A DNA stretch of 64,000 nt from Candidatus Omnitrophota bacterium (GCA_035352955.1 DAOPYQ010000001.1:101536-165535), one strand, 5' to 3'. Counted from the first letter of the stretch, positions 16,337 through 47,900 are shown. Notes: generated by a model from the letters alone, not told the origin. Numbers and translations are program-made.

Positions 16337-16345
16337 AGACAGTTT

Positions 16346-16354: not shown

Positions 16355-16363
16355 AAAGCCCTT

Positions 16364-17371: not shown

Positions 17372-17377
17372 TCTGAT

Positions 17378-18100: not shown

Positions 18101-18192
18101 GTTAAGAGTTTTTACGTTGTGCGTTGATCGCTGACCGCCCAATTTTCGCTTTGCGGAAATTGACAGGCATTGAGACCGTTGCGCGAAAAAAA

Positions 18193-18789: not shown

Positions 18790-18795
18790 GGAAAC

Positions 18796-18823
18796 TGGAC
18801 ACCTTGGGCGTATTTGCTATAAT
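18796..18823 (+). promoter_or_regulatory. Putative sigma70-type promoter upstream of eno (-35 TGGACA, 16-bp spacer, -10 TATAAT)
   Basis: The -35 element spans 18796-18801 and the -10 element 18818-18823, in the 146-bp intergenic gap between purN and eno. Confidence 0.35.
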
Positions 18824-18884
18824 CAGCCTCTGATTTTCCGGGTTTCTTTCCCTGTTATCCCCGAAAGTTTTCGACCCTCCATAG

Positions 18885-20245
<1,361 letters not shown>

Positions 20246-20246
<1 letters not shown>

Positions 20247-26900: not shown

Positions 26901-29900
26901 GCACTTAGCCTGCTCTTTGCCATTGAGGTCTTTCCGGATTTTAATGACATGAAAACATTCGCTCTGAATCTTTTCTCGATTCTTGAAAAGCGCTACGGGC
27001 CACTGGACCGGGAGGCTATGGTGGACGCGGCAGAGGATCTTTGGAACAGCATGTTCCCGGCACCGCGCGTGCGGAATTTCTGGACTACAAAAACGAAAAG
27101 CGAGTTTGAGGCATTTGACAGCCTTTTCCGGGACTTTGCGGCCTCGCTTGATGCGGCAAGGACGGCAGGAAGTGAGAAGGCTTATAAACAGGCTGTCACA
27201 CAATTCAAATTGCAGCTGCATCATTATGCGGGACAAAGGCAGGCCAGGGTTACACGGGGAGAGCCGCAGGACGCGCAACGCGCGGCACAGGGTACGCAAG
27301 GGGTAACGGAAGGGAAGTTGTGGGCGGAGAGGGCCGAAGACGGTTTGCGTTCGGAACTTCGCGTGACGCATCCTGACATTCGCGAAAGGATGCGTGGCTT
27401 GAGGCAGAAGATAGAAAACCAGGTCGGGGATACCGGAGCGTTCGGAGCTTATGTCCAACTGCTGGATTTGCCCCCTGCCGCCGCGAGGTCCCAAGTCATT
27501 GGCGATATCAGTAAAGAGCTCAAGAAACAAGCGCGAGCGATCGCGGACACGGTTACGGATCCGGACCCCAAAGTCCAGGAAACGAAACAGAAGACTTTGC
27601 TCGCGAATCTGACAGTGCTTGCGGTCCTTCAGACCATCGACCGTAACGCGAGAAAGGCGGCTTCGACGGAGCCTGCGGGCGACAAGTTCTTCGGCCTGTA
27701 TGAGCGGGAAAGTTTCGTCGAAACGGCGTTCTTCACGCACATGACGGTTTCGCTGAGCAGTTTGCTGAAGGACCTTGATCCCGACTATATCGAGGATGAA
27801 GAACTGCGGCTTTTAACTTTCAAGATCCAGACTTACTTCGGGCTGGAAGCGTTTTTTAAAAGTTCGCCGAAGGTCCATTTCCGTCCGTGGTTTAGCAAAT
27901 TCCTGCTCAATTACATTCTCCGTGAACGTCCCGAACTCGCGCAGGCCCTGTATTCTCTGAATCCGGATCAGAGCCTTGTGGGGCTTCTCGAAGACTGGTC
28001 CGTTGAATCCAAGCTCAAATTCCAGGAGTGTCCGGAGATTACGATCCTGCGGGACATCGTGAAGCGCTACCAGTTCACGTTCCGGGATTTTGTCAGCAAG
28101 AAGAGCGGCCAGCCCTTCGATGAGAACGAGGTCTCGGAACAGTACCAGGGCGACCTTGAAATGCTCATGGAAGACGAAACCGTGCGCGGGCTGATCCAAC
28201 GGGATCTCCGGGGGCTCCAGGATATCGTGACGATCATGCTGACGGAAGGCCGGATCGAAGCGGAAAAGGCCAAAAAAGAAAAGGGCGGCAAGGACGACGG
28301 GTACGGCGAAGTTCGGTACATCCTGGAACAGATCATCCCGAAGGCCCTGCCGAAGATCCGGGAGAGGCTGAATAACGCGGACCCTCTCGAGATCCTTGAT
28401 GCGATGGCGAGCATTGTGCAGGTGGCGAACGGGGAATTCTCCGCGTTGATGGGCAAGTTGCTTGGGGCGCACCCGCGGATCGGGGACAAGTATTCCCGTC
28501 TGATCGCGGGCAACGTCCAACGCCTCAAGCAGATCGGACTGATCCTTGTGGCGGTCGGCGAGACCGGATTTGACCAGATCCCGTTCGATAAACTGGTCGC
28601 ACGCTACAAGATCGTAAAAGGGAGCGACGCCGAAGGCCGGCTTCTCGAGATCATCGCGAACATCGCCCGTTCCGCGAAGGAAGGGACCGCCGGACTGATC
28701 GAAGAAACCTTCGATCTTTACAGCCAGGAGGCCGGCGAGACGTTGGACGACCTGAACAAACTGCTCCGCGCGTTCAATTATTTCGTCAGGATCGTCAATT
28801 TTCACTATGAATACGAAAAACTGGTCCTTGCCGGCGAGGTCGGCCAGATCAATAACGAAACTTATTTCGTGAGCTTGCGCGACCTCAAAAAGACCCTGCA
28901 GATCGTACGGCGCAACTTCAACGCAGGCATGGACATCAAGGAAGCTGCGGCCGATGCGGTGAAACGCCGCTATTACAACCGTCTTAGTCCCGAGGACCGC
29001 GACCGCGTGCGGGGCCTTATGATCTCTCACAGGATCATCCATCCCCACGACGAATTGAAGTTCAGTTATGAGGTCCAAGGATACGAGGTCGGCAGCCGCG
29101 AGATCGTGATCACGGAGAAACGGCCGCCGTATCAGATGCAAAAGAAGGACCGGGTGACGGGGCAGCTCTACATGGAAGAGATCCAGGTCGGGAAGCCTCG
29201 AGAGGTCATGCGTATTCAGTTTAAGGAACCGCTGGAACCCGGAGACGTCGATCCGGACATCATCTTCAACGAAACGACCTGCCGGAATCTGTCGGCGGTG
29301 CTTGAGGCGCTGGAGGTCAAAAACGGCGAAAAATTCAATCCCGTGCTGGAATTCGGGACCACGGCCGGCGGCAAAAGCACGATCGCCAAGCTCGCGGCGA
29401 AGGTCCTCAGGGTCGGTTACACCCGCATCCAGATCAACGAACGCACCGACGAGTTCGATCTGTTCGGGTCCTTTCAGCCGTTCGAGATCAACATGGAGCT
29501 GGGCGATGCGATGGAGCGGATCCGGGAAGCTCTCGATCGCGGGGAATACAACGCGCTTGAAGATGTCCTGAGCCGCATGTTGACGGGCGGAGAGGGGAAG
29601 TTCTGGGAACGGTTCTTCAGCGAAGAAGAACGCCGCGAGATCCTTGCGGGACAGGAGGGACTGGACCTTCACGAAGCCAAACGTCTGGCGATCCAGAAAC
29701 GTGTCCTCGCCCGCGTCGAAAATATCCTCGCGCAGGCGCGAGAACTTTTGCCGTTGGAACATGCGCCTGCCCAGGACCCGAAAGCGGCGGAACGGATCCA
29801 ACTCGTCAAGGCCATGGCGTATATGCTCAATCATGAAGTCGGGCTCCGTTACAAGAAAGGGCGTTTTCTCGAAGCTTACGAAAAAGGTGACCTGATCCTT

Positions 29901-32900
29901 CTTGACGAGGTTAACCTTGCGAACGAGGAAATGCTCGGCGTGCTCTACCAGCTTCTGACGATGGGGTATCTCCAGCACGGTGGCAAGGTCGTCGAACCGG
30001 CGTCCGGCCAGAAAGCCCGTATCCTGGCGACGGCGAACCCTTCAAGCTACGGCGGTCGCAACCGGATGAGCGAGGCGTTCATGAACCGGTTCGAGATCAT
30101 TTATATCGATTCGATGACCGATGAGGAAATGGCCGAGATCCTGGAAGGGACCGTTCATAAAGACCTGATCGCTTCCGGCCGGTATGCGGCGGCGGACTTC
30201 AAGAAACGGGAGGGAGAAACCCCTGCCGAGTGCCGGCAGAGGCTTGACCAGATCCTGCTGAAAGAGATCGGAGTGACACGTTACCATCTGACGCTTTTGG
30301 CCCGGGTCCAGGACAAGATCAACGGCGCGCTCCGCGGCGGGAAATTCATCGGGATGGGTGCCGACGCCGATTATGTTTTTACGATCCGCAATTATTTCAA
30401 TTTATACAAGGACCAGATGGCCCGTAAAAAGCAGGGGCAGACGCTTAGTCTCGAGACCTGGCTGCGCGAAGCCTTTATGGAATACGGGAACGTCCTGATG
30501 CGCACGAATACGTATCTCCTGAATCAGCCGGAACTTTTGAAGGAAGAAGCCTCTTACAAGACGCTTCGCAATATTTTCGGGCTCACGATCGGGGATCCGA
30601 TCCTCGACCTTCCGTCGCTTCAGCATCCGCGCGAAGGCCCTGCCGCGGCGGACGGTACCCCAACGGTGCGGTCCACCCTGCGGCCCGAAAATGCCCATGA
30701 AGCCTTTGATGAACTGGTCGCGAACTGGTTCCGCAAGATCGATTACGAATATGACCGGGCGACGCATACGCTCCGGATCGACGGGCTTACGATCACCGGC
30801 CGGACCCTCGAGGAACGGAAACTGATCGAAGAGCTTATCGAAACGGAGTCCACCAAATACAGCCAGATCGCGGTCCTGAAGGCACTGCTCCTGAACGAAC
30901 CGCTTCTGAACGTGGGCCAGTCCGGCGGAGGAAAGACCGAATCGATCGGGGATATTGTCCAGCGCCTCGGCCGCAAGTACGTCACGGTTTCCCTCGGAGA
31001 CGCGACGCTTGAAAGCCTGCTTGGGAACATGGAATGGAATCCGCGGGAAAAACGTTTTGTCTACGTTCCGGGGATCCTCGTCAAAGCGATGCAGGACGGA
31101 TCGGCGCTCGTGCTTGAGGAACTGAACATGGCGAAGTCCGGCGTGATCGAGATTCTGAACGAATATTTTGACGAAGGGACCTTCACCAATCCTTTTACGC
31201 TCGAGAAGATCAGGGTCCATTCTGATTTCCGGTTGTTCGCGACCATGAATCCTGTGCAGGGTATGACGGGGCAGAATGGCGGACGCGTGAGCCTTTCTCC
31301 GGCTCTCCGCAACCGTTTCCGCGAAGTATGGGTGCCGCACGAAAAAACGGATGCGGAAATGCGGGAGATCCTTCAGGGGCGTTTTGCTCAGAAGAATATC
31401 CAGGTCGGGGATGTTTCGATGAAGAAGATCCTCGCGTTCTTCCACGCGTATCAGGAAGCGTTCCGTTTCCGCGGCGAAGCGGCCTACTATACGAGCCCGC
31501 GCGACCTGACGCGTATCGTCCGGATCATGTCCTATCTCATCACCGTCTGCCATATGGATGAAGAAAAAGCCCTCTCCCGAGCGGTGCGGCGCGTGTACTT
31601 TGCCAAGATCGCGAAAGAGGAGGACCGGAACGATGTCCGCAAACTGATCGCCGAGGCAAAGATCCCGTCCGGCGAGATCCGGGCGCCTTCCTACCGGTTT
31701 TCCGAGGACAAACGTTTTCTTGAGGCCTACGATGGCCAGGAACTTGTCGCGCGTTTCGATGTGACCGCCCACCGGTCCCGCCTAGAAAAGATGATCGAGG
31801 ACGAGATCGGTGAAAACGATCCCGGCATTTCCGGAGAGGCGCTCCGCTCGCAAACGAAGTCCAAACTGGAACAGGCACTGAAAGAAGCGACGCTGGTTGA
31901 GAATGCGCACACGATGGAGAATCTGCTCGGGCTCATAGAGGCCGTTGCGATGGACGATCAAGATGTCCGGCAGGGAAAATTCAACCCGGTCCTTCTTCTT
32001 GGCGAAACCGCAGGAGGGAAGACCTCGCTTGTGAAATATCTTGCCGTGGCGATCCTCGGACAGGGGTACACCCGCATTCAGATCAACGAACGCACCGATG
32101 AGCTGGACCTTTTCGGTTCGTATGAACCGCGTGAAATGAAGATCGGAACGGACGATGCGGTCCGGATCGTCCAGAACGCCATCGAAGAAAAAGAGTGGGT
32201 CAAGCTCAAGAAAGCCCTGCAGATGTTGAGAAAGGGGTACGCCGGCGAGGATGAATTCGACCGGTTGCAGGATCCCGAGCGGATTTTCGAGCAGCTTGCG
32301 GCAGAGGAAACGGCCGCCCGTGAAGAGATCTTCCTGTATCTCCGGCAGGCCGTCTCGGATGACGCTGATCCCCAGAGTCGTGACGCGGCGATCCACCGGC
32401 TCAAGGTGATCGCGTATCTCGTGAAAAACGGGGCGATGAGCGTGGAAATGGAGTTCCGGGAAGGGCGGTTCCTTTCCGCCCTGAAACGCGGGGATTTTAT
32501 CGTGCTCGACGAGATCAATCTTGCGAGCGAAGAGTCGATCGCCGTCCTGTACCAGTTCCTCACGCTCGGTTTTGTGGAATATTACAACAAGGACGCCAAA
32601 GATGAGAACGGCAATCCCCACCCGCGCGTCGAGAAGATCTATCCGCCGGCGGGAATGAAACTGGCCGCGACCGCGAACCCGTCCGGTTACGGCGGCCGCA
32701 ACCGTCTCAGCGAAGCGCTCATGAACCGTTTCGAGATCCAGTACCTGCAGAACATGTCGCCGGAACAGATGAGCGAGATCATTATGGGAGAAAGCGCCCG
32801 CAAAAGCGTTTTCGCGAAAAATACGCGGTTGGCCGGCACGGTCCTGAAACTCGCCAAGCTTCAGCGGCAGATCAACTTGACCCTGGGAAGCGACGCTAAT

Positions 32901-35900
32901 CCTTTTCCGTCCGTCGGTTCGGGGCAGACGCAGGGATATCTGTTCACGCTCCGGGACCTGAAGCGGATCATGCGGAGCGCTGAAGAGATCCTTAGCCAGG
33001 GGAGCCGTTCGCCACCCGAGGCCCTGGTGGTCCAGCAGGCGTACCTGGAATATCTCGGCGTGCTCGGCCGAAGCGACGACGAAGTGAAACATCTTCTCCA
33101 GATCTTTAAATTCCCAGAATTTTTCCCGTCGTTCGATCCCGACCAGCTCAATCTCTCGTTCGAGGAAACCCGGAACGCCCGCGGCCGGAAGGTCATCCGG
33201 ATCGGCGGTTTCGAGATCGAAGAGCGCGACTATGACGGCAAAGGACCCTCGAATGAAGCGGACGTCATTGAAGCGCTTGAGGAAGGTCCGCTGACCAATT
33301 TGATCCGCATTGCGATCGTGAAAGGTCTGTTGGACCCACGAAGCCCCGTGATGGCGGTCGGCCAATCCGGCGGCGGGAAAACCGAAATGATCGGGGATGT
33401 CTGCCGGCGGCTCGGATGGAAATACCGGTCTGTGTCGCTCGGGAACGCGTCGCTTGAAAGGTTGATCGGAGGCTATGAGCGGGATCGGGAAACGAAGATC
33501 TTCCGGTATATGGTCGGCGAACTGGTTCGGGCCATGGAGGACGGCGCGGTCTTTGTGCTTGAAGAAGCCAATATGGCGAGTTCGGGGCTCGTGGAAATCC
33601 TGAACGAATATTTCGATGAGGGAACATTCACCAATCCTTTGACGGGGCGGAAGGTTGTGATCCACAAGGATTTCCGCCTGTTCGCCACGATGAATCCGGA
33701 GGTCGGTGTGACCGGGTCGAATGCCGGCCGCGTGGGATTCTCCCCGGCGCTCCGGAGCCGTTTCAAGGAGGTCTGGGTACCGCACGTCAAGACCTCCGAC
33801 GAGACAAAGCGGATCATTCGTAAAAAATTCACAAATCAGAAGATGAAGGTTTCCGACAAGACCGTTGAACAGCTTTATTCGATCTACGAGATGTTCCGAA
33901 CCTACGTGGAAGGATTCAATGATGAGACCGGTCTGTTGCATCCCGCCCGCATCGGCCAGGTGAACAACGAAGGCTACTACACCAGCTTGCGCGATATGGG
34001 AAAGATCGCGGACATCATGGTCCAGGACATGCGGCGTGGCGTTCCAGAATCCGAGGCTCTCCGCTATGCGGTCAAGCGTATCTATTATCTCCGGTTAAAT
34101 TGCGAGGAGGACCGAAAGGTCGTGCGGGAAGAGATCCTTGCCGGTCTGGACATGACGCCGATGGAATACCGATGGAGCCTGGAGGGGGCCGAGTATGTGA
34201 TCCGTCGCGGTCCGATCGAAGTGGCCCGCGTGTCCGCCGAGCTTCTCAAGAAAAAACATTTTGTCCTGACGGGTCCCGCGAAAGAAGAGATGGGTTTTCT
34301 GATCGAAGCGATGAGCCGCGGCCCCGGGTTCAAGCGGTCGTTCAATCCTGTCATGCTTTTCGGTGAAACGAGCGGTGGCAAGTCGACCATGATCGAGATC
34401 GCCGCGCACATTTTCAGGAAGAAGTTCAGACGTATCCAGATCAATCAGCGGACCGACGAATACGATCTCCTCGGAAGCTATCATCCCGTCGAGATGAAGC
34501 TCAGCCTGGCGCGCAGCCTCGAGGTCTTCCAGGAGAACCTCCGGAAGAAGAACTATTCCAAGATCGCGAAAGCGCTCCGGGTCTTGAAGAAGGACGTCCG
34601 GCTCTCGCTTCATCTTACGGAAGATGAGAAAGTGAGCGATGCCGAACTTTTCCAGCGCTTCCTCGACCAATACATCCTGCCCGGCGTGAAGCGAGAAGAC
34701 TCTACCGTCATCGAGGAGGCCCGTAAACTCGCGGTCCTGATCCATAACGGAGTGGCCGGTATCGACCTGGTCCACCAGACGGGATTTTTCCTTGAAGCCG
34801 TCGGGAACCGGGACGAAGGGATCCCGGGCCGGATCGTGCTTCTTGATGAGGTCAACCTTGCCAACGAGGAATCCATCGGGCTTCTTTACCAGATCCTCAC
34901 GCTCGGTTATATGGAATACCAGGGCAAGCGTATCTATCCCGGCGACGGCTTCCAACTCGTGACGAGCGGCAATCCGTTCACCTATTCCGGCCGCAACCGG
35001 ATGAGCGAGGCGTTCATGAACCGGTTCGAGATGCATGTGATCCCGGAGATGACGCCCCAGGAAATGGTCCAGATCCTTTGGGAAGGTTATGATCTGCAGG
35101 CCAAAGGGATCTCGCAGAACGCCTTGCAGGAGATCGTCGCCCTGCAGGTGAGGATCCATGAAGAAAGCATGAAACACTCATTCGATGGGTTCAATCTGGA
35201 CAACACTTACCGTTTCACGCTCCGCAACCTTGAGAGGATCGTCGAAGACGCACTGAAGCGGAAAACCGTCGAATCTTCCCGGAGCGCCGACGAGTGCCTC
35301 TGGGTCGAGGCCTACATCGAATACGCCGGGCTGCTGAGCCAGTCGAACGAGGATGACAACGCCGAAAAGAACAATATCGCGACGCTGAAAGGCCTTTTCC
35401 ACGACACCTTGCTCCGGGAAGGCTATGCCGTGCTGGGCAAGAAGATCGAATCGGGCAAAAAAGAAGAGCTGGAAAAACTTCTCGGCGTGCTCGGGATCCT
35501 GACTGAAAAAAAGACGGTCGACGATATGAAAGCGCAACTTAAGGAGATCCTCGCCTGGTCCCTTGGCGGCAATCTCGGGGCGACCTTGCAGGTCCTGAAG
35601 CTGGTGGAGGCCGTCACGGGCAAGCCTTATCAGCCGTGGTATCCGGACAGGGATCCGCTTTTCATGGAATTCCGGAAGATGGCCGTGACGCAGGAAGGGC
35701 AGACCGAGTGGGCCGAACTCGGAGGGGTCCGTGTCGCGAAACTTTCGGCTTCCGAGATGCTCGAAAGTTTTCTTAAAGAATTCGGGACCGATACGGAAAG
35801 CGGGCTTTTGAAAGGACCGAACGGAGAGGCCTTGGAGGCTTTCGACGGGAACAGCCAGAAGTATATCTTGCAGCAGATCCAAGGTATTGCCGTCCGCCGG

Positions 35901-38900
35901 CTTAAGCAGGAAGGCGGGAATCTCAAGGATCTGTTGCGTCAGGAGGTCCAGAAATGGATCGCCGGGCAGCTGGAAGGTTTCCGTCTGCCGCCCGGTTATA
36001 TCGAAGGGCTCTTGCGCAAACATTTTTACACGCAGGCGGAAAGGATCGAACAACTTGTCGAATTGAGATCGACCCTGATCCCGCGCATGCAGATCATGAA
36101 AGGTTTCCGCGACGGTGGCGTGGTCCAGACGGAGGACACCGAGGGCAATCCGGTCGCGATCCACAAGTCGCGCCCCGTCAATGAGATCGGGCAGTCCGGC
36201 GGAGGGAAGACCGAAATGGTCGCCGACATCGCGCGGGAACTGAACTGGCCGTACATGTCGGTCGCGCTCGGCGCCGCGACCGTGGAATCGCTCGTGGGCG
36301 AATTCGTTCTGAACGACCAGACGGGCGCTTTCGAATTCCGGAAAGGGATCCTTGTTCGCGCGATGGAAGAGGGCGCGGCGCTTGTGCTCGAGGAACTCAA
36401 TATGGCCGAGAGCGGCGTGATCGAGATCCTGAACGAATATTTCGATCGCGGGGTCATGACGATCCAGGGCCGCAAGATCTCGGTGAAGATCCACCGCAAT
36501 TTCCGCCTGTTCGCGACGATGAATCCGACGGAAGGCCGTACCGGGAAGAATGCCGGCCGGATCCCGCTTTCGCCGGCCTTGAGGAGCCGGTTCCGCGAGA
36601 CATGGGTCCGCAGCGAGCGCACGAAAGCGGAGCAGTACCGGATGGCGCTTGGAGGCATTCGCGATCTTGTGAACGGTTTGATGGAACGCGGGATCCCCGA
36701 GGAGTCCGAGGACGCCATGGGGATCCTGGAAGAAAACCTGACGCGGCAGAAGATCGCCGAAAGGTCCGGTCTCCGCAATCTTCCCAAAGGGAGGGACAGT
36801 ATCGAGGACGGGGTCACGGTCGAAGCGGTTCGCCCCGTCACGGCGCGCCCGGCCGCGCGTTCCCCGTCCGCACCTGCCGTGAGCATGGCCGCTCCGGCCG
36901 GCGAGCCTGCCGTCAAGATCCCGACCAAAGGAGAATGGGAACGGCTGCACCTGGAGGAGAGGAAAAAACTTTATGAAGACACGTTCTCGATCATTACCGG
37001 AAAAGCGGACATCAAACTGGTGGCCGGCAAGGGCTGGTCGTGGGCGCCTGCCAGTCATGTTCTGACTTACGATGAAAAAGACATTGAGAACCTGAGCCTG
37101 AATGCTCTTCTCGGCGTCGGGATCCATGAAGCCATGCACCGTATCGGGACGCGGTACCTTTCACTTTTCTGGGAGTTTTTCGACGAGCACGGAATCGAGA
37201 GCCGCGTTTTCAATACGCTCGAGGACGGGCGCATCGAGAACTGGGGGCGTTTCCTTTTCGGCGGGGCCGCCACGCCTTTACGCGCGACTAATGACGAAGT
37301 CGTGTTCGGGAAAGTAAAAGACGTGGACGAAATGGTGGAGCGGTTTGTGTTCCGCCAGAAGGACAAGGAGGGCAACGTTGTCGAACTTTCCTACACGTCC
37401 GCGATCATTAACTTTTTTCTCTATCTCGGCAAACGGGGTTCGGATGCCAACGCTCCCGAAGTCATCGAAAAGTTCCTGAAGGCTTTCGAGAAACGGGACC
37501 CGCAGCTTCGCAGGGACCTCGCGGGGCTGCTTCAGGCAGGGTATTTTGGAGGCGGGCGCGACGAGGATATCCTGAACCCGCCCAACCAGAACCGGGTGTC
37601 GGGCGTTTTCTCTAAACTTCCGATGAAAAGGAACGAATTCGGGACTTACGAGTTCGACGCCAACCCGGCGGGAACGACGGTCGAGAATCTGGCGATCGAA
37701 CAGGGGATCATCATCCGCGAATGCATCATGCCCATTGTTTATAAATGGGCCGTCAAGGATCTTGCGGACGTTCCTTCGGGAAAAGGGAAAAAAGGTAAGG
37801 GCGGAAGGGAAGTTATCCCGCGGAAATCTTCCGGGGGTGGCGGGGAAGATGACAGCGATGGGGACGACGGGGGCGAAAGCGATGGGGAGAGTGAACCCGG
37901 CCAACCGGCTGATGGATCCCCCAAGGATTTCAAGCCTGGAAAGCCGGCAAAGGGCGGTCAGCCCGTGAAGCCGATGACCCCGGCGGAGTGGAAAGCGATC
38001 TGGGACAAGCTCTCCAACGAAGACAAGAAAAAGTTGACGGACAAGATCGACAAGGGCGTCGAGCACAAGGCCCAGGACCGTACGGCCAAGGATTCCAAGG
38101 ATTACCAGAAGGCCCAGCAGGACGCCGAGATCGGAAAGCCGATGAGCGAGCGCGATCGTTTGATGGGACTCCTCGGGCGTATGATCACGGAACTTTCGGG
38201 GTACCTGCGCGACATCATCCAGAATTCCGTCCGTCCGAAAGAGATCACCGGTCTCAAGCGCGGACGTATTGACGTCCGGCGTCTGATCAACTCCATGGCG
38301 CGCGGATTCACGGACATGCGGTTCTATAAGCAGCGGATCCTTCCGCAAAAAAAGAACGTTAAGTTCACGATCATCGTGGACGAGAGCGGCAGTATGTCCG
38401 GCATGGAAGAACCCGGCAAGAAAGTCGAGATCAATACGCCCCAGAAAGGGTACCGGACGCTGATGGGCGTGACGCTTCTCATGGAGGTCCTGGAATCGCT
38501 CGGGATCGATTTCGCCGTCCGCGGTTATCACGACACGACTTGTCTCCACAAACGGTTCAAGAACCAGAGGATCCCTTCGGACAAGAAAGACCAGTACCTG
38601 GAAGCGGGGCAGGATGCCGTTCAGGACGGCTATACGACGAGGCGGGACAAGGAAAGTTTGATCGATCTTCTCCGCCAGAGCATCGGTCGCGGCGGGAACA
38701 ACGAAGGGCCGGCGCTGGAAGCCGCGATCCGGGACGCCGGGGAGGCGGGCGGTGAGCGGCACTATATTATTATCCTGACGGATGGCATGGGCGATGAAGA
38801 GGCGATCAAAAAGCATGTCGCTCAGCTCCGGCAGGCGAATGGTATGGTGAACGGGACCAAGGTGGAATTGATCGCCATCGGCCTCGGGAACGATTGCGAA

Positions 38901-41900
38901 TCGGTGATCAACAATTACGGCGGACGATACTCGATCTGGCTCAAGGATGACGAGGTCCAGAAACTTCCGGCCGAACTCAAACGCATTCTCCAGGAAGTGA
39001 TCCGCGGTGTTTTTCAACCCGGCGCGCCCGGCGCGAACCGTTTTGAGAATATGGCCCGGGGCTTCAGCCTTGCCGGTGTGGCCGGCATGGTCGGCGCATC
39101 CCGCGTCCGTTCGGAACTTCGCGCTTCCGAAAAGGTCCCCTCTCTCTCCGGCGCCGAAGACGAGGGGCTTGGCGAAGATCAGAAAACATGGTTCCGTTCT
39201 TTGCAGTTCAGGAGTCCGGAGGAGCGTTCGGAACTTCTCAAGGTGATCCGGGACAGCCATTTTTATTATGAAGATCTGGTGGGCGAGACCCCGGGGGGAA
39301 GCCCTGATTTTCAATACAAGTTCGGGGATGGTCTGCCGATCCTTCAAACGTTTTGGGAATCGGAATCTTTTACAACACTTCCGGATTCGCGAGAAAGGAT
39401 CCTGGTCTTGAGGCTCTTTGACGGGATTTTGAATACCGGGGATTATTTTATGATCCAGCAGGCTGCCAGGATCCTGGAGCGTTTGGTGGGTCCTGAAATT
39501 CTCGGAAAGGTTACGGACCCTCAGGAAAGGGTCCTCGCCCTGGAAGTGACTGCGGATATCCTGGTCCAATCGAGCGTTTACAGTCCGTGGGGTAATACAA
39601 TATCCCGAAGTGAAACCGTTATGGATTCTTTCCTGTATTTTTTAAGCACCTATTATCCGGAGATAAATAAAAATTTCGAAAAGAACGCGGAAACTTGGGG
39701 CTTTTTCCGGGAAATCATCCGTGCGGGGTATGAGCCCGAGCGAAGGTTTGAAGAAACCAGCAGGGCTTTTGGCATGCTGGGCAAGTTAATGGACTTGGCA
39801 GGTTTTGAGCGGGTTGGCGGACCGGAAGCGAAAAAGAGGGTTCTGGGCGTTGTGAAAGATATCCTGGTTTATTCGCAGCCAGGATCCCAAGAGGCGTTCG
39901 AAGCTTTAAGGACCTTGCTTGGAGGTCAAGGTTTCGGCTCGATCCAGGATCCGGACGAACAGGGAGTGGTGCTTGAGATCCTTTGCGCCGTTCCGTTTCT
40001 GGCCCGCGAGCGGGCGGACGCGTACTTCCAGAGATTCGATCAAATGCTTTCATGGGCTTCCGGTGGGGCCGCGAGCTTTCATGAAAAACGTTTTAGGGAG
40101 ATCCTTCTCGAGTTTTCTTCCCGGCCCCGGTCTGCCGAAGCGGCAGAGAACGCCTGCCAGAAGATCATCCAGCTGGCAGATCAAAGCGCAGCCCGTGAGA
40201 CACGAGGGGAACAAAGCCCGGTTCCCGAGCCTCAAGCCCTGCTTGCCGGCAGGCAAAGTTCTGTTCTTGAGAATAAGGAAGGGAAGTTGTGGTTTGAAAT
40301 TCCAACGACGGATGACGGAGATCGGATGGCGGAGGACGGACGGCTAAAGGCAAAAGGTTTTTCGACATCCGACATCCGTCCTCCGCAATCCGTAAGCGAA
40401 GATGTCAGCCGCGCAGAGCGCAACGCGCAACGCACAACGAAAAACGGAGATTCAACGTTGACCGTTGCGCGTGGCACGTCGAACGCGGACGAAATCCGCC
40501 GTGCCGAGCTCCGCATTTCCGGGATTCCTATGATCCCTCTTGACCGTTACCAATGGTTTAATGCCGATACAAATGAAGAGCATAAGGCCGAGCTTCGCCG
40601 GAAAGTCGCCTTGCTTGAAAACGAACTTCGCCGTTATCAGGGGGATGAACTTAGAGAAGCTCTGCGTTGTTTCAAAGACTGGTTCGCTTCAAAGGATTGG
40701 ACCGCCGCCGGGGTGGATTATGAGCAACGATTAAAGATGCTGGAGATTGCGGTGAACCTGCAAATCCATGTTTATCCGGGAATGGTCTATAGTGATGGAA
40801 GGCCTGCTTTTGACCATGAGAAGCTGAAGCCTTTCTCGGCTTTTCTGAAAAGCGACGCCTTTCGGCAGATCGTCGATCCCGCCGAGCGGCAAAGGGTGTT
40901 CGGCGTGCTCGCGGACATTCCTCCGCGTGCCGGGGATGCTGCGCCTAAAGCTTTCAAGGCCCTGGAAGCGTTTCTTGGCAGAGCAGGGTTTTCCGGAAGG
41001 GTGGACCCTTCGGAAAGAACGCGCATGCTGGAGGTGTTCCGGCAAACGGTGCTGGATATTTCGAATAAAAATGTGAAAGGTGATGCGTTTGCGGGGCTTG
41101 AAGCTCTGAATCGCATCAAGGCCGTTTCGGATCTTGCGGATCCGGCCAGCTTAAAAAAGATATTCGATCTTTTTTGGGAGATCGGCCGCACGCGGGATTA
41201 CTGGAAATGTGACTCTTTCGAACCGTTGGCGCAATTTCTCGCCTCGGATGCAGTACGCGGGATCAAGCATTTCGAGGATCTGTGCGCAATTTTTGACATT
41301 TGCAAAACACTTGTTGATTTAGGGATCAAAAACCGGGCGGCGGCATTCTGGGGTCTCGAAGGGTTTCTCAGAACGCAGGATTTTTCCATGCGGGAGGACG
41401 CGGTTCTTCGGGGGATTCTTTTGAAAGAATTCTCCGGGATATTTGCCCTTGTCGGGAATGTTGGAGGTTACTATTCGGATGAGCGGTCCGGTGCCTTGGT
41501 CGCTTTGGGGGATTTTTTTAACAGAAAATGGGGATTTGAACGGCTCGAGACGAACAGAAAGGTGATCGATCTTTTGGGAATGATCTTGCCCGGTCTGGCG
41601 GATGAAGATGTGCGCGGATGGATCGAAGCGTTTGGCCTGGATATTTCCGCGATCAGCCATACGGAATCCCTGAAGGGAGAGCCTATGGTAAATATCCTTC
41701 AGGAATTTTCTCAAGGAGCGGAAAGCGTTACGGGAGCTGAGGAACGCAAGGCCTTGGCGCAGGCGGCGGCGGAGAAGATCCGGGCGTTGGCAGATCATGC
41801 CCAGGCGCGCGCGGCGCGCGGGGAAGCGCATGACGCGCAACGCGTCGCGAACGGCGCGCAACGAGGAGTCGAAGGGAAGTTGTGGAACCAAACGGCGGAG

Positions 41901-44900
41901 AGACGCAGTGAAGTTCGCTCGGGACAGGGGGAAGAAACTCAGAAAACGATCAATTTGAAGAAAAAAGATTGGTTGGGGCGGTACGACTGGTACAAGCGGA
42001 TCTCTTCGCAGGACGAGAAGAAACGGACCGGGAACCTTGTCCGGGACGTATCCCTTGAGGTCTGGAGATATGCCAGCCGGGAGAAGCCGACCAATTTCGA
42101 TCCTCTGTGGCGGTTGCTTGGGAGCGAAGGATTCGGCCGGATTACGGATTCGAAGGAGCGGGAAGAGCTTCTGAACGTTTTTCTCAAGATCATGAAAGAG
42201 ATCTTCGAAAAACGGTATGTGGACGAAAGAGCGAATCTGGCCTTTCCCAAAGAGAATAAAGATCATGCGCTTGAAGCGTTCGCGTCATTTCTCGGCAGTT
42301 CGGCGTTCAGCCGGACCACGAATCCGAAAGAACGGTTGAGAATGCTGGGCCGTGCCCGGTCGATCCTGATGCGGTTCGCGCAGTATGAGCCGCATGACCG
42401 GACCGTCGCTTTATCAAACCTCGAAGAGTTTTTCAGGAGCAATGGTTTTAACAAGGACCTGAGCCCGGCGGAGCAGGGGAAGGTCCTTCAGCTTCTGGGG
42501 ACGCTTCCTCAATATACCCGGGGAGGCCTTGATCACGCTATTTTGGCTTTGTGGGTGATGATCGAAGGCGCGGGTTTTTCGGGGATCATGGGGTCCGGGG
42601 AGCGGATCATCGCGTTGAAGAAGTTCGGTGCTACTGCGGCCGGATTGCCGCGGTATGAAAAAGCCGGGTGGAACGATGTGACCCGCCGGGGGACGGAATG
42701 GGAGGTTTATGCGGCTTTGCGGGAATTGCTTTCCAGCGGGTATTTTAACCGGATCAAGGACTCTGCGGAACGGATAAAAGTGTTCGACGATTTTGCCGCG
42801 CTGGTCAATATCGCTGCGGTGGGTAAAGAGGAACGGCCGGACCTTGTGCTGGAGGTTTTTCGACATATTTTTCAGGGCGCCTTGTTTACAGAGACTGCAG
42901 ATCCCGGTGAACAGAGGATCGTCTGGGGAATCCTCCGGAAGCTCGCGGCGTACCGGAACGCTTACCAGGTAACGGATGATTTGGCGGATCTGCTGAACGG
43001 TGACGGGCTGAAGGCCGTGGTCCTTCGCGAAGAAAGAGCTTTGATCTGGGAGATCATTAAACCGCTCGCACAGGATGCCGAAAAAGACGGCGGTTGCAAT
43101 TTCTTCCGGGCTCTCAACACGCTGCTTTCCGGAAAAGGATTTCAACAGACGAAGGCCCCGTCCGAACGGTTGGGGGTCCTTCGTCTTGCCGGCCTGCTTT
43201 TAGATCCGGAAGATGACGAGATCGATCATAAGATGAAAGATCTGTCGGAGGCGCTGGTAGAACTTCAGGACGCATTGCAGGAGGGCGTAAGAACGGCAGA
43301 CCTTCCGGCGCTCTTGTCGGATCTTTTTGAAAATGCGGCGTACGTTCGTAGCAGGAAAGAAAAACTAGCGTTGGCGGTGAGCGCATGGCGGCAGATCATC
43401 CAGAGCGCATCTCAGGGCTTATCCCGTATCGATCGCGGGGAACCGCAGGCCGCGCAACGCGCAACGCACACCCCACAGGGGCTGGGCACAGGACGCCCTG
43501 GCGCGCAACGAGAAGAGGAAGGGAAGTTGTGGCTTGAAACGGCAAAACCGGAGGACGGAAAACGGATGACGGATGGAGTAAAGCCTGGTTTTTCGACATT
43601 CGACATCCGTCCTCCGAAATCCGTAAGCGAAGATGCCAGCCGCGCGGAGCGCAACGCGCAACGCACAACGAAAAACGGAGATTCAACGTTGACCGTTGCG
43701 CGTGCCGAGGTCCGGGGCGGGCGGATGCCAAAAGAAAAAGCTTTCGATCAAGTCAAGCGGATCGCGGCGATGTATCAAATGATGCAGTCCAGTTCGGAGA
43801 ACAAGGTTCCCGGGACCCTTTCGCCGGATAATCGCTACTATATTCCTTATCTGTCGGAGCGGGTGATCGATATCCTGACGGGGCAGGAACTTCCGCTTTC
43901 CAAACAGCTTTCATTTGCCCGTGCGAGCGAAACGGTCTTTTCGAAGGACGGGCGTTTTCTGGCCGCAGTCGATTGTTCATCCCCGCTATTTCCATTGAGA
44001 AAGCCGGGGATCGCGGAGATCTACGATCTTGAGACCCTGCAAACATCGGTCGCCCGGCTCCAGAGCAAGCCGCTACGAGAGGATGGGCGCCCCGTGTGGA
44101 TCTCCCGGGAGAACCGTTACCTGGTCGTCCACTACCTTGATTCCACCACAGAAGTATTCAGGATCGAACCCGGCGCGGCAGAACTCACGAAGGTTGAGGG
44201 CCTTGGTGAGAATGTGTATGAGATGGATATCTCAGAGGATGGTACCTGGTTTCACATGCCTTATTTTTTAAGGGACAACAAAGCGCGCTCGATCGATCTA
44301 TTGAACGGTAAGGAATATCCGGTTGCGGCGGGGCGGACAGCCGAAATCGTTCCGTGGCGGTACGGAAGCGCGGTCGTCTTCCTCCCTAAGGAACACGGAA
44401 ATCCGATGCGGCTTCTTGACCGGAAAACCGGGAAGGATATTGCCGATCAGGTCGGTCCTTATTCGGGCGTGGTTGTTCACTCGCCGGACGGCAGGAAGCT
44501 ACTTCTCCGCGGAACGGGGCATGCGCTCAACCTGGTCGTGAATGAGAACGGCGTCTGGAAGAAGACAGCGCTTGCACTGAAGACGAGATCGTCGACGGAG
44601 CCGGTCGCGGTCTTTTCGGAAGACGGGCGCCGGCTTGCCGTCGCGGACATCGAACCCGGTTTTATTCTTGTCTACGATGCGGACAAGACGGACAAAAATC
44701 CGGAGCGTTACTCGATCTGTCCGACCCCGAACGAGATCTTTTTCCCGGAGCGGATCGTTTTTGTGGCGGGGCAAAAAAGACTGCTCATAAAGATCGGCGT
44801 CAAGGGGGCCATCCGGAGCCCGCAGTGGCTGTACGCGTCTCTTTCACGGGAGAACGTCGCGTCCTCCTTTTGGATTACCGATAAAACTCATGACGGTGTT

Positions 44901-47900
44901 TACGGAGAACCTGCGCCGGACGGGTCCTGGATCACGCTGCAAAATCACTCACGCGATCCTTTTGAGGTGTACGACGTCAGGCGGGAGGTCAGCCTCAAGC
45001 TTCCGTTTGAAAGCCGATACGTCAGCGATGTCCGTTTTTCCCCGGACAGCCGGCGTATATCATTCGAATCCCGGGATCCGGATGATCTTGGGCGCCGTCA
45101 GGTTATTGACCTTGAAGCGTTCCGTGAGAACGGTTTTCTTAACAAATTATCGCAGACGGAGGAAGGCCCGAGTCTCCTGTTCCTGCTCTTCCGGAACGGG
45201 TTCTTTCAGCGCCAGGAGGCGGAGCCGTTCTTCGAATTAATGAAGGGGCTTCATCGGCCGAGGTTGGTCACACTGCCTCTCATGAAGTTCTTCACGACCT
45301 ATTATTACGAGAAAGAAGTGCCTGCCTATGTGGTCCGGGCGCCAGGAGTCCCTTTTGCCGACATTGCGGAAGCAATCGGGAGATTTTCGGAGGAAGCGCT
45401 TCGGGTGAAGGCAGAGTCAGGCGAACAAGCCGCAGTCCGGAATTTTGCGGCGCGTCTGGATCAATTCGAAGAACAGACCCTGGCCCGTCAGACGCGAGGG
45501 GAAGCGCAGTTGGTTTCCGGTCCTCAGGTCCCGAAGGTGGAGAGTGAAGGGAAATTGTGGTTTGAAACTCCAACGACGGATGACGGAGGTCGGATAGCGG
45601 AGGACGGAAGGCAAAAGGCAAAGGGTTTGACGTCCTCCGTCCTCCGTCCTCCGAAATCCGTAAGCGAAGATGGCAGCCGCGCCGAGCTTCGCAAGCTTCT
45701 GGAGGATCTCCGCGCGTTGGGGATCCGTGTTAAGGACTGGATCCTTTACCAAACGGTCTATCGATGGGTTTATTTTCATCCGATCATCAGGATCCGGGCC
45801 CTGTGGGCCGGGATTCTGAGCCTGGGAACGCGGGAAGGGCAGCTAAGGATTCTTTATCGATTCAAATACCGCCGGCAGATCCGCGAGATCCGGAAAGAGA
45901 TCTTACAATACGCGAAGGCGACGCACATGTTCAAACAGGACAAGGACCTGGCTCTCGGGGGATTCCGCCGGTTCGTGAAATACGGATTGGTCCTGGTGAA
46001 GGATGCCGCGGAGCGGGAAGAGCTTTTGGCGCTTTGCGCGCGGCTCCCCGGGCATTCCGGAAGCCAGATTTCCGTCGTTTGTATGCTTTTGGCCAGGGCG
46101 ATGGATCCCATCCTGATCCTTTTCCCTGGGCGTTCCGACCGGCATCGGGTCTTTCAACTGATCGAGAACCTTTCCCGGTACAGCGATCGTTCCTGGGGAT
46201 TTATGTCGGTAGCGCATTTGATAGAAGCTTTGGAAACGATCGTGGAATCTCAAAATCGGGACCGGAGAGAAGCGCTGATGCGGTACATGGAAGAATTCGG
46301 TCAAGAGACTGCCGGGATTCAGGATCCCGAGGCGCTGGAGAAGACATCTTTGCGCACTTGTCAAAATATCCTTCAGCTGGCCGATCAGGCCGATGCCCGT
46401 CAGACGCGGGGGGAGCCGCAAGGAACGGGACTCGAACCTTCCGCCCCAGGAGCGTCGGCGGACAGGCAGAATCCGGGACTCGGAGAAAAAGAAGGGAAGT
46501 TGTGGTTTGAAACGGCAAAACCGGATGACGGAAAACGGATAACGGATGGCGTAAAGCCTGGTTTTTCGCCATCCGAAAGCCTTCATCCTTCTTCCAAAGA
46601 TGACGGACGGCTCAAGGCAAAGGTTTTGACGTCCTCCGACATCCGTCCTCCGTTATCCTCCGCCGACGGCGGCGAACGGGCGGAGATCCGTAGCGCGGTG
46701 CAACGATCTACGGAGAAAGCGGTATTAGAAGCGAAGATCTTGTCCGCTCGGAGCAAGATTTATCGTTATTCAAGGGAGCATTTTAATTATGCCGGGGAGA
46801 AGGAATCCCAACTGGTGCGGATGGATGACGAGATCCGAAAATTTTTGATGGCTTTCAACGGCGCGGCGGAACGGAAAGCCCTGTTGGAAATATTGCAGAG
46901 CCTTTTTCGCTGTTGGAAAAAGGATGAAACTATGAATCCCTTTGCTTTATGGAGTGTGATCGCCACCTGGAATGCGGCATTGTCGGTCTATCCCGAAGGC
47001 GTGCTGCGGGGCATGATCGCAAGATTCATAGAAATCTTTTCGCAATATTTAGAAGAGGTGTCGGGGATGGATCTGGATATTACCGGATTTAAAGATGCTT
47101 TGATCTCTATTCATGGCGCAGCTGCCGATGGCAATGGTCCCTTGATGGCGGGTGTTTTTTCCGAGTTTTCTGAGGATGCGGGAGGGTTTTCCGATGCTCC
47201 GACAGCCGCAAAGGCTGTGAAAAGGGTGTATCAAGAAGTTTTCCGTGTGCTTGATCAAATAAGCTCCCGTGCGGCGCGGGGAGAAGCGCAGCCGGTTCCA
47301 AGTTCCCAGTCCCAGGCCCGTGAGGACAAGGAAGGGAAGTTGTGGCTTGAAATTCCAACGACGGATGACGGATCCCACGGGACTGCTTCGCCGGATCGGA
47401 GGACGGAGGACGGAAGGCTAAAGGCAAAGGGTTTTCCGACATCCGACATCCGTCCTCCGAAATCCGTAAGCGAAGATGGCAGCCGCGCAGAGCTTAAAGC
47501 GCAGCGCACAACGAAAAACGGAGCCCCAACGTTGACCGTTTCGCGTAGTACGTCGAACGCGGACGAAGTCCGCCGCGCCGAGCGGCGTTTCAGTGACGCG
47601 GAATATGCGACGGCGTATGAGAAACTCAAGTATTTCACTTCGATGGGGTTTGGGGCGCAGCAAGTCGCGGTCTCGGAGCACCTTAGGCGGGGAGTTGTGG
47701 AATACCGAGATGGGAGCGTCAGGGTTTTTGATCTTGAGACCGGGAAGGAGGGCGCGAAGCTCAACCTTGGCCCGGAGAGGGATCACTTGAAGATCGCGCC
47801 TAACGGTCGCTCCATCGCGGTCAAGTATAAGGACAACCGGTGGAAGATAGTCAGTTTGGAGACCGGTGCCGTAGTCTTCAATTTTACACCGGAAGATAAT

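What the first reader, a model, noticed from the sequence alone, without database searches (positions are those of the whole stretch)
37000..38990. An HExxH metallopeptidase-like module plus a VWA domain is fused downstream of the ATPase ring, giving the MoxR-ATPase / peptidase-VWA partner system in one chain
Between AAA6 and the VWA domain lies GIHEAMHRIG, with HEAMH encoded at 37125-37139, followed by NTLEDGRIENWG. This spacing fits a gluzincin (HExxH...E) zinc site. In many bacteria MoxR-type AAA+ ATPases sit next to separate partner proteins that combine a putative HExxH metallopeptidase with a VWA domain (DUF2201-type). Here the same logic appears as one polypeptide with six ATPase domains. 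The protein may therefore remodel, or proteolytically process, a MIDAS-bound ligand.
Basis: partly seen in the sequence, partly recalled or inferred. Interest (0 to 1): 0.8.

Follow-up and report, generated by a model that had tools for sequence, protein, structure and literature searches.

The report
Zincin-VWA tail on bacterial midasin-like ATPase
A 9,803-residue Omnitrophota protein joins a midasin-like ring of six ATPase domains to a CobT-type adaptor tail whose N-terminal domain, unlike the one in the vitamin-B12 enzyme, keeps an intact zinc-protease signature, so a normally two-gene remodelling machine (possibly with a cutting function) sits in one chain.

Summary
HEAMH (nt 37125-37139) is the only HExxH in a 9,803-aa ORF, and it lies between the sixth AAA_5 domain and a MIDAS-bearing VWA domain. 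The motif alone could be chance. However, H, E and H are invariant in all 7 orthologous loci and in every homologue aligned. It sits in a confidently modelled zincin fold (pLDDT 92) whose low-rmsd PDB matches are gluzincins (M48, minigluzincins).

The family assignment needs correcting. The module is not DUF2201_N, since PF13203 is never matched. It is a divergent CobT N-terminal-type domain:
- hhalign to a PF06213-positive protein gives 97 % probability, E 1e-11.
- Its top viral fold matches are phage CobT proteins.
- The VWA profile hits solved CobT best (E 2e-28), then midasin (2e-22).

The tail has the order N-domain, disordered acidic linker, pore "finger", VWA, as described for CobST and NorQD. 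Canonical CobT has lost the HExxH; this clade keeps it. The AAA modules match midasin at E 1e-68. Standalone relatives sit next to separate AAA_5 genes, so the fusion idea holds.

Protease activity is inferred, not shown. This is a new variant of a known kind.

The parts
20904..50315 (+). Giant ORF of 9,803 aa that contains everything below
   Evidence: Orthologous giant ORFs occur in Omnitrophota MAGs.
29271..36683 (+). Six tandem AAA_5 (midasin-like) ATPase modules. Walker A starts at nt 29355, 30915, 32001, 33360, 34362 and 36189. The modules alternate between two types.
   Evidence: Pfam AAA_5 at E 3e-77 over 6+1 stretches, and Midasin AAA lid PF17867. Walker A/B positions. The AAA3-4 pair matches midasin at E 1e-68.
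36801..36923 (+). Pro/Ala-rich low-complexity spacer between AAA6 and the zincin module
   Evidence: Read from the sequence.
36924..37772 (+). CobT_N-type zincin-like module (residues 5341-5623): helix, three-stranded sheet, HExxH helix, second motif helix, helical bundle
37125..37139 (+). HEAMH: two putative zinc-binding His and the catalytic Glu (H5408, E5409, H5412)
   Evidence: Invariant in alignments A2, A3 and A6. Lies in helix 59-75 of the model.
37212..37244 (+). NTLEDGRIENW on the following helix. N5437 and D5441 are invariant. E5440, R5443 and E5445 are nearly so. These are the candidate third ligand and site-stabilising residues.
   Evidence: Lies in helix 91-111 of the model.
37773..37973 (+). 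Disordered Gly/Lys-rich then acidic linker (GGGGEDDSDGDDGGESDGESE)
   Evidence: pLDDT below 50 for tail-model residues 285-347. Equivalent acidic low-complexity linkers occur in the phage, plasmid and ICE CobT-like proteins.
37974..38225 (+). Charged helical segment preceding the finger (equivalent to the alpha0'-alpha0 extension of CobT_C)
   Evidence: Helices 353-432 of the tail model. Aligned with CobT 348-372. CobT description from bioRxiv 10.64898/2026.07.21.739949.
38226..38360 (+). Finger/shaft-equivalent segment (SVRPKEITGLKRGRIDVRRLINSMARGFTDMRFYKQRILPQKKNV) directly before VWA strand beta1
   Evidence: Aligns with the CobT shaft Q373-R413 and with the same segment of midasin. Low confidence in the tail model, pLDDT 53-74, as expected for an element that is ordered only inside a ring pore.
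38361..39023 (+). VWA domain with MIDAS residues D5826, S5828, S5830 (nt 38379-38393) and D5960 (nt 38781-38783)
   Evidence: Profile A4 against PDB sequences: CobT 2.1e-28, midasin 1.8e-22, NorD 3e-14. Invariant D/S/S/D/G columns. pLDDT about 90.

Best explanation
Residues 5341-6040 are a CobT/NorD-type adaptor tail fused in cis to a midasin-like ring of six AAA_5 domains.

Shown:
- The tail has four parts in order: (i) an N-terminal domain with an M48/minigluzincin-like zincin fold, (ii) a disordered acidic linker, (iii) a finger segment, (iv) a VWA domain with a complete MIDAS motif.
- Homologous tails exist as separate proteins encoded next to single-domain AAA_5 ATPases.

Inferred by analogy with the solved CobST and NorQD complexes and with Rea1:
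- The finger inserts into the pore of the ATPase ring.
- The N-domain docks on the lid subdomain of one ATPase module.
- The MIDAS face captures an acidic residue of a client protein.
- ATP-driven rotation or pulling stretches the linker and remodels the client.

Distinctive point: in canonical cobaltochelatase CobT the N-domain has lost the HExxH, whereas this clade keeps H, E, H and a conserved N-x-x-E-D-x-R-x-E helix. I therefore infer that the N-domain here binds zinc and most likely acts as a metallopeptidase that clips the client held by the MIDAS domain, or clips the giant protein itself.

Confidence in the homology and architecture is about 0.85. Confidence that the domain is a working peptidase is about 0.5.
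For: Conservation: HExxH is invariant in 7 of 7 orthologous loci and in all homologues aligned.

Fold:
- AF2 model pLDDT 92.1, with HExxH in a helix after a three-stranded sheet.
- Foldseek's top ten PDB hits are all minigluzincins, probability 0.87-1.0.

Link to the CobT N-domain:
- BFVD top hits are phage CobT / VWFA proteins.
- Phage CRP-810 CobT and a Salmonella island protein match PF06213 and carry HExxH...N.LED..IER.
- hhalign gives 97.4 %, E 1.2e-11.
- PHROG 'peptidase' phrog_459 matches the HExxH core of the standalone relatives.

VWA: the profile hits CobT > midasin > NorD.

Partner ATPase in trans.

Ring: midasin at E 1e-68.

Tail order and disorder.

Mechanistic templates:
- CobT_N resembles M48C, docks on the CobS lid, and the shaft sits in the pore (bioRxiv 10.64898/2026.07.21.739949).
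- NorD finger sits in the pore and its N-domain on the lid; midasin has a MIDAS loop in the pore (PMC13036017).
- Phage MoxR plus vWA with an N-terminal metallopeptidase (PMC7824862).

Canonical CobT_N lacks HExxH.
Against: - No activity data exist for any member.
- I could not inspect model coordinates, so the geometry of the metal site and the identity of the third ligand are unverified.
- In the two systems with structures (CobT, NorD) the N-domain works as a docking and lever element without proteolysis, so the fold does not need catalysis to be useful.
- The window sequence itself does not reach any Pfam model. The link to PF06213 is transitive.
- Docking of the finger and the N-domain on this ring is analogy only. 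The tail model has pTM 0.55 and says nothing about the ring.
Confidence: 0.6

Rival explanations
1. Non-proteolytic adaptor. The zincin-like domain only docks on the ATPase lid and acts as one lever point, as CobT_N and the NorD N-domain do. The HExxH site binds a structural metal, or holds a metal ion for delivery to a client, as in a chelatase or metal-insertion chaperone.
For: - CobT_N, which has the same fold, functions without HExxH.
- A Caballeronia 'CobT' also lost the HExxH yet keeps the ILEDRRV helix and its AAA partner.
- MoxR-VWA systems with known roles insert metals: NorQD, CobST.
- E5440 and the following Arg/Glu are retained even in inactive CobT, so that helix has a non-catalytic role.
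Against: - The general-base Glu of HExxH is not needed for structural metal binding, yet it is invariant in every aligned sequence of this clade, down to 17 % identity.
- Lineages known or likely to be non-proteolytic did lose the motif, which argues that the motif is under selection for something they lack.
Confidence: 0.3
2. One reading: the module is a DUF2201_N (PF13203) putative metallopeptidase with a DUF2201-type VWA-like domain.
For: - The general logic is the same (HExxH domain plus VWA beside a MoxR-type ATPase).
- DUF2201-type phage proteins appear far down the structural hit list (E 0.2-0.5), so a distant superfamily relationship is possible.
Against: - PF13203 and PF09967 are not matched by the window or by any family member, even at E<=10.
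- The relatives carry CobT_C (PF11775) and TIGR01651 instead.
- Bridging proteins match PF06213.
- CobT-like proteins are much better structural matches.
Confidence: 0.07
3. A chance HExxH in a spacer between AAA6 and the VWA domain, with no domain of its own.
For: One HExxH in 9,803 residues is not improbable (expected 0.16).
Against: - The motif is invariant across 27 or more homologues.
- It lies in a 283-residue domain modelled at pLDDT 92.
- That domain recurs in standalone proteins from phages, plasmids and metagenomes.
Confidence: 0.01

Closest known systems
CobT-like VWA adaptor proteins of phages, ICEs and plasmids (Pfam PF06213 CobT + PF11775 CobT_C; PHROG 1576), paired with CobS-like AAA_5 ATPases. 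Includes the jumbo-phage MoxR / metallopeptidase-vWA pair noted by Iyer et al. 2021.
   Same: - Same domain order: HExxH N-domain, acidic disordered linker, finger, MIDAS-VWA.
- Same signature, HExxH ... N-x-x-E-D-x-R-I-E.
- Profile-profile homology.
- A partner AAA_5 ATPase.
   Different: - Here the ATPase is in the same polypeptide and has six tandem modules of midasin type.
- The unit is embedded in a 9,803-aa chromosomal protein rather than being a 550-700-aa protein on a mobile element.
- The window's N-domain is too divergent to reach PF06213 directly.
Aerobic cobaltochelatase CobS-CobT (CobSTN; PDB 9UKA-9UKL, 21VU, 21VT)
   Same: - The VWA profile's best solved match (E 2e-28).
- CobT_N has a helix, a three-stranded sheet and then helices, and 'resembled peptidase M48C'.
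- About 90 disordered linker residues, a shaft in the ring pore, and the N-domain on the ATPase lid.
   Different: - Canonical CobT_N has no HExxH: GDSMA aligns where the family has HExxH.
- Its client is CobN. No CobN or cob operon is seen in the genes examined around the giant ORF.
- CobS is a single-domain homohexamer and is not detected by the window's AAA modules.
Eukaryotic midasin (Rea1/Mdn1)
   Same: - Six AAA domains in one chain.
- Strong sequence match of the AAA modules (E 1e-68) and of the lid (PF17867).
- An acidic disordered stretch before a MIDAS domain that matches midasin's at E 2e-22, including the pre-beta1 finger segment.
   Different: - Midasin has a helical linker of about 1,700 aa and a long D/E-rich region (own knowledge). 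Here a 283-aa zincin module and a 67-aa linker take their place.
- The zincin profile finds nothing in midasin sequences.
- The MIDAS domain is not C-terminal here: 3,760 residues follow it.
- The organism is a bacterium.
NorQ-NorD (and CbbQ-CbbO) MoxR-VWA remodellers
   Same: - Adaptor order of N-domain, long disordered linker, finger-VWA.
- Finger in the pore and N-domain on the lid.
- NorD is the third-best solved match of the VWA profile.
   Different: - The NorD N-domain is not described as a zincin.
- NorQ is a weak match to the window's AAA modules (E 3e-4).
Minigluzincins and M48 peptidases (selecase, projannalysin, proabylysin; Ste24/ZMPSTE24)
   Different: - No significant sequence similarity (E 0.8-0.9).
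- The module has an extra helical bundle of about 170 residues.
- The second-helix motif is N-x-x-E-D-x-R-x-E.

Membership tests
Zincin / gluzincin metallopeptidase fold | HExxH located in an alpha-helix (the active-site helix) | tested here: met
   HEAMH is at module residues 68-72, inside helix 59-75 of a model with pLDDT 92.
Zincin / gluzincin metallopeptidase fold | Mixed beta-sheet immediately before the active-site helix | tested here: met
   Strands 31-34, 39-41 and 46-49 precede the helix. An invariant Trp (W5378) lies on the middle strand.
Zincin / gluzincin metallopeptidase fold | Third metal ligand (Glu, or Asp) on a downstream helix | tested here: inconclusive
   Helix 91-111 carries invariant N5437 and D5441 and near-invariant E5440 and E5445.
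Zincin / gluzincin metallopeptidase fold | Structural similarity to solved zincins | tested here: met
Zincin / gluzincin metallopeptidase fold | Zinc binding and peptide-bond hydrolysis | not testable with these tools
   Needs biochemistry.
DUF2201_N / DUF2201 (PF13203 + PF09967) | Match to the PF13203 model | tested here: not met
   No hit for the window module, nor for any of the 21 sequences of alignment A3 (the window plus 20 relatives), at E<=10.
DUF2201_N / DUF2201 (PF13203 + PF09967) | VWA-like domain of PF09967 type | tested here: not met
   The VWA region and the relatives hit VWA, VWA_CoxE and CobT_C, never PF09967.
DUF2201_N / DUF2201 (PF13203 + PF09967) | Closest structural neighbours are DUF2201-type proteins | tested here: not met
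   DUF2201-type phage proteins score E 0.2-0.5. CobT-like proteins score E 3e-4 to 2e-3.
CobT-like adaptor (PF06213 + PF11775) | N-terminal domain homologous to PF06213 | tested here: inconclusive
   The window and its close relatives do not reach PF06213 directly. The module profile aligns at 97.4 %, E 1.2e-11 with a PF06213-positive protein, and at E 2e-5 with phage CobT. Alignment to solved CobT_N is in register but weak (E 0.0044).
CobT-like adaptor (PF06213 + PF11775) | CobT_C-type VWA with an N-terminal extension and shaft | tested here: met
   CobT_C is hit by 10 of 19 standalone relatives. The profile's best PDB hit is CobT residues 348-622, which includes the shaft region.
CobT-like adaptor (PF06213 + PF11775) | Disordered acidic linker between the two domains | tested here: met
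   pLDDT below 50 for 63 residues that include the GEDDSDGDDGGESDGESE stretch. Equivalent linkers are present in the relatives.
CobT-like adaptor (PF06213 + PF11775) | Works with an AAA_5 (CobS/MoxR-type) ATPase | tested here: met
   In cis here. In adjacent genes at L009, L011, L012, L013, L015, L016 and L017.
Cobaltochelatase CobT proper (TIGR01651 equivalog) | Cobalamin-pathway context with a CobN client | tested here: not met
   The upstream flanking genes scanned are housekeeping genes, and no CobN was found among the ORFs scanned on either side. The giant ORF itself shows no CobN-type family. HExxH is intact here but absent from solved CobT.
Midasin (Rea1/Mdn1) | Six tandem AAA domains of the midasin type in one chain | tested here: met
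   Six Walker A motifs. AAA_5 stretches and Midasin AAA lid. AAA3-4 matches midasin at E 1e-68 over 4 stretches.
Midasin (Rea1/Mdn1) | MIDAS domain homologous to midasin's, preceded by an acidic region | tested here: met
   Profile match at E 1.8e-22 to midasin residues 4562-4781. The acidic stretch is short.
Midasin (Rea1/Mdn1) | Large helical linker domain between ring and D/E-rich region; MIDAS at the C-terminus | tested here: not met
   Only about 80 residues of spacer and a 283-aa zincin module separate AAA6 from the acidic linker, and 3,760 residues follow the VWA. The zincin profile finds nothing in full-length midasin sequences.

The most novel reading that the evidence does not exclude
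The embedded zincin is an active, ATPase-coupled protease. Its substrates are the 18 or more conserved junction motifs of about 80 aa (R..RGE...EGKLW.E...DG..R...PGF.S.S.IR.P.S...RAE.R) that punctuate this giant protein and the adjacent paralogous giant protein. On this reading the two genes encode bacterial polyproteins that the MIDAS/AAA/zincin core captures and cuts into modules.
Probability: 0.1. Interest if true: 0.85.

Novelty: new variant of a known kind. Interest (0 to 1): 0.62.

Why it matters
The component parts are already known:
- MoxR/AAA_5 ATPases with VWA adaptors.
- Phage versions whose adaptor carries an N-terminal metallopeptidase.
- The M48-like fold of CobT_N.
- Midasin's ring plus acidic linker plus MIDAS domain.

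Three things are new here.
1. All of these are fused in a single bacterial chain.
2. The ring is specifically midasin-like (E 1e-68) while the tail is CobT-like. This links the eukaryotic ribosome-assembly motor and the bacterial chelatase-type adaptors through one architecture. It also bears on the published view that the six-tandem AAA arrangement arose in early eukaryotes (PMC3495828).
3. The protease signature is intact in this clade but lost in canonical CobT. That suggests the adaptor N-domain began as a working peptidase and became a pseudo-enzyme in the chelatase.

The fused protein offers a natural construct for testing how a ring, finger, MIDAS domain and zincin cooperate.

Tried and rejected
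- **Word-indexed homology search with the module:** no hit. With the profile, only 6 hits, unnamed or called 'ChlD'.
- **Pfam and NCBIfam on the module:** nothing. All family members at E<=10 gave only weak zincin hits: SprT-like, Zn_peptidase_2, Peptidase_M1.
- **AlphaFold-database fold libraries:** not available, so no AFDB family naming.
- **tblastn of the window tail against phages:** no match. The bridge came from a standalone relative instead.
- **N-domain profile A5 and single CobT-like N-domains against PDB sequences:** did not reach solved CobT. I recovered the real CobT_N sequence using a remembered CobT fragment purely as bait. Only the database sequence printed in that output was used.
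- **Foldseek against the PDB:** returned no CobT chain. The 9UK*/21VU entries were not among the matches.
- **PADLOC:** no meaningful defence-system match for the tail, its relatives or their ATPases. The only hit at the E<=0.001 cut-off was a borderline DrmE match (E 9.7e-4, 15.8 bits) for the E. coli phage-plasmid CobT.
- **Rfam and tRNA scans of the window:** empty.
- **Midasin passages of PMC7203096:** lie beyond the text held.
- **Chance motif:** considered and rejected. **DUF2201 membership:** considered and rejected.

Full report
**1. What is there.**
The finding lies inside a single ORF, window 20904..50315 (+), of 9,803 aa. HEAMH is at residues 5408-5412, which is nt 37125-37139, exactly as reported. 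NTLEDGRIENWG follows 25 residues later. Upstream are six Walker A motifs and seven AAA_5 stretches, plus a 'Midasin AAA lid' match. Downstream is a DESGS MIDAS motif at nt 38379-38393. The HExxH is unique in the protein. Composition predicts 0.16 occurrences, so the motif alone could be chance.

**2. Is it more than chance?**
Eight related loci were found in public genomes. Five have record titles naming Candidatus Omnitrophica/Omnitrophota MAGs and three are labelled only 'uncultured bacterium'. Identity is 33-74 %. All seven loci that cover the region keep HE[AS]MH and DGRIE.W.

An exhaustive HMMER search of 1.8 billion representatives with the 311-aa module gave 28 hits. These were other giant proteins with the module placed internally, about 300 residues after their last Walker A, and proteins of 530-630 aa with the module at the N-terminus. 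In each of the 27 hits that cover the site there is exactly one HExxH. Where the hit extends far enough, a DxSGS motif lies 300-420 residues further on.

In a 27-sequence alignment reaching down to 17 % identity, W5378, H5408, E5409, H5412, N5437 and D5441 are invariant. R5417, E5440 and E5445 are nearly so. This is a conserved domain, not a spacer.

**3. Fold.**
With a 21-sequence alignment, AlphaFold2 gives pLDDT 92.1 and pTM 0.90. The topology is helix 4-25, strands 31-34/39-41/46-49, helix 59-75 carrying HExxH, helix 91-111 carrying N/E/D/E, then a helical bundle.
- Foldseek's ten best PDB hits are all minigluzincins, with probability 0.87-1.0.

**4. Which family?**
PF13203 (DUF2201_N) and PF09967 are never matched, by the window or by any member, even at E<=10. 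The evidence points to CobT instead.
- The standalone relatives hit CobT_C (10 of 19) and TIGR01651 CobT.
- With only the zincin module as query, the best matches among predicted viral structures are 600-750-aa phage proteins named 'Cobalt chelatase CobT subunit', 'CobT-like' or 'VWFA domain containing' (E 3e-4 to 2e-3, probability 1.0). DUF2201-type proteins score E 0.2-0.5.
- A standalone relative led by tblastn to Roseobacter phage CRP-810 CobT and to a Salmonella genomic-island protein.
- Both match Pfam PF06213, the CobT N-terminal domain (E 2e-15 and 5e-6). Both carry HEAGH...NALEDIWLER or HEAAH...NVLEDCRIER.
- The module profile aligns to the Salmonella N-domain at 97.4 % probability, E 1.2e-11, over 150 columns. 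It aligns to the phage CobT at E 2e-5, with both motifs in register.
- The same signature is present in an E. coli phage-plasmid 'CobT' and a Marinobacter plasmid VWA protein. A Caballeronia 'CobT' has lost the HExxH but keeps ILEDRRV.
- PHROGs places the relatives in phrog_1576 and phrog_17276 (CobT). At the HExxH core they also match phrog_459, annotated 'peptidase'.

**5. The VWA half and the ring.**
A profile of the VWA region hits solved cobaltochelatase CobT best (E 2.1e-28), then midasin (1.8e-22), then NorD (3e-14), well ahead of integrin I-domains. The alignment includes the segment just before strand beta1. This corresponds to the CobT 'shaft' Q373-R413 and is also shared with midasin.

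A 700-residue model of the whole tail has these features:
- two confident domains;
- a 63-residue disordered linker containing the acidic run;
- low confidence over the finger segment.

The AAA3-AAA4 pair matches midasin at E 1e-68 over four stretches. NorQ reaches only 3e-4, and CobS is not detected. The ring is therefore midasin-like and the tail is CobT-like.

**6. Partner logic.**
Standalone module-VWA genes lie directly next to AAA_5 ATPase genes in:
- three metagenomic contigs;
- the phage (CobS-CobT);
- three plasmids.

Relatives with two AAA_5 domains fused to the module also exist (P0006, P0011), as does one with HEAT repeats, AAA_5, the module and a VWA (P0010).

**7. Mechanism.**
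Two recent structural studies give a common picture for this class.
[quoted passage not shown] About 90 linker residues are disordered. A shaft preceding the VWA enters the ring pore on nucleotide binding. The client CobN sits between CobT_N and the MIDAS face (bioRxiv 10.64898/2026.07.21.739949).
- In NorQD, the VWA finger enters the pore, the N-domain binds a lid, and rotation stretches the linker. Midasin's MIDAS loop is likewise in its pore (PMC13036017).

By homology I infer the same arrangement here, in cis.

The distinctive point concerns the HExxH. The real CobT_N sequence from the PDB reads ...GLGDSMALRQARH...FDAVEQARVEAIG, so it has no HExxH. It aligns in register with the family. 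Canonical CobT is thus a pseudo-peptidase, while the window's clade keeps the two His and the general-base Glu under strong conservation. The most economical reading is that this N-domain binds zinc and is a functional peptidase acting on whatever the MIDAS domain holds. Iyer et al. proposed the same for a jumbo-phage MoxR / metallopeptidase-vWA pair (PMC7824862). Catalysis is inferred, not shown. The non-proteolytic adaptor reading remains a serious rival.

**8. Comparison and novelty.**
Each element is known. The combination is new: a bacterial single-chain midasin-like hexa-AAA ring with a CobT-type tail whose zincin is intact. I found no description of it in the literature available here. 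The Omnitrophota giant-gene preprint mentions AAA_5 only in a figure legend, and a survey of huge proteins mentions midasin only for eukaryotes. Zhang & Aravind place the six-tandem AAA arrangement 'early in eukaryotic evolution' (PMC3495828). I rate it a new variant of a known kind.

**9. Limits.**
- No coordinates could be inspected, so the third ligand and the site geometry are unresolved.
- The AFDB fold libraries were unavailable.
- The PF06213 link is transitive.
- Nothing here tests activity or the identity of the client.

Noticed in passing
window 20904-50315 (EGKLW at ORF residues 1037, 1455, 1776, 2136, 6459, 6990, 7539, 8215, 8530, 8810, 9473) and window 50483-64000: There are 18 copies of a conserved junction motif of about 80 aa (R..RGE...EG(K/S)LW.E...DG..R...PGF.S.S.IR.P.S...RAE.R) that divide both giant proteins into modules. 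The AAA/zincin/VWA core lies between copies 4 and 5. The copies differ at 58 % of aligned residues, and 29 % of identical residues use different codons, so the core positions look selected rather than recently duplicated. The motif is absent from the orthologous giants examined. No Pfam family covers it.
   Followed up: partly
window 50483-64000 (+): A second giant ORF starts at ATG 50483 and runs off the window end (at least 4,506 aa with no stop). The ORF listing does not show it because it is open-ended. Its N-terminus is paralogous to that of the first giant. It has junction motifs but no Walker A, HExxH or MIDAS motif.
   Followed up: partly
window 29271-36683: The six AAA modules alternate between two types. 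Odd modules have Walker A G(T/E)T(A/S)GGK(S/T) and Walker B LDE(V/I)NLA. Even modules have GQSGGGKTE and LEE(L/A)NMA. The ring therefore looks like a tripled two-domain unit. Relatives with exactly two AAA_5 domains plus the module exist (P0006, P0011).
   Followed up: partly
window 31941-34250: The AAA3-AAA4 pair matches eukaryotic midasin at E 1e-68, far better than any solved bacterial MoxR-type ATPase (NorQ 3e-4). The direction of any gene transfer between bacteria and eukaryotes was not examined.
   Followed up: partly
window 35178-37139 (-) and 37278-39569 (-): Long antisense ORFs of 653 and 763 aa overlap the region. Protein-level conservation is in the + frame, so these are most likely non-coding shadows of the giant gene.
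   Followed up: no
L012:8-1852: The AAA_5 partner of standalone relative P0023 carries a C-terminal ribosomal protein L7/L12 C-terminal domain (PF00542, E 1.3e-9). This is an unusual fusion for a MoxR-type ATPase.
   Followed up: no
L014:3576-6734 and L017:284-4734: In the Salmonella genomic island and the Marinobacter conjugative plasmid, a DUF3150 protein lies directly upstream of the CobT-like gene. In Marinobacter, an AAA ATPase gene lies upstream of the DUF3150 gene. In Salmonella, ssb, bet and a YqaJ exonuclease lie upstream.
   Followed up: no
L015:2667-4307: The Caballeronia plasmid 'CobT' has lost the HExxH (DMLAA) but keeps the ILEDRRV helix and an adjacent AAA ATPase. This is an independent example of the inactive form outside a cob operon.
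   Followed up: partly
window 47697-47897: There are weak beta-propeller / WD40-like matches (THOC3, EML, ANAPC4_WD40, PQQ_2) in the C-terminal third of the giant protein, all far below or near the family cut-offs.
   Followed up: no
window 14482-20246: The genes upstream of the giant ORF are ordinary housekeeping genes: PdxA, KsgA-type rRNA dimethylase, polyprenyl synthetase, a TP_methylase-family protein, PurN-type formyltransferase and enolase. No tRNA or Rfam family occurs anywhere in the 64 kb.
   Followed up: yes
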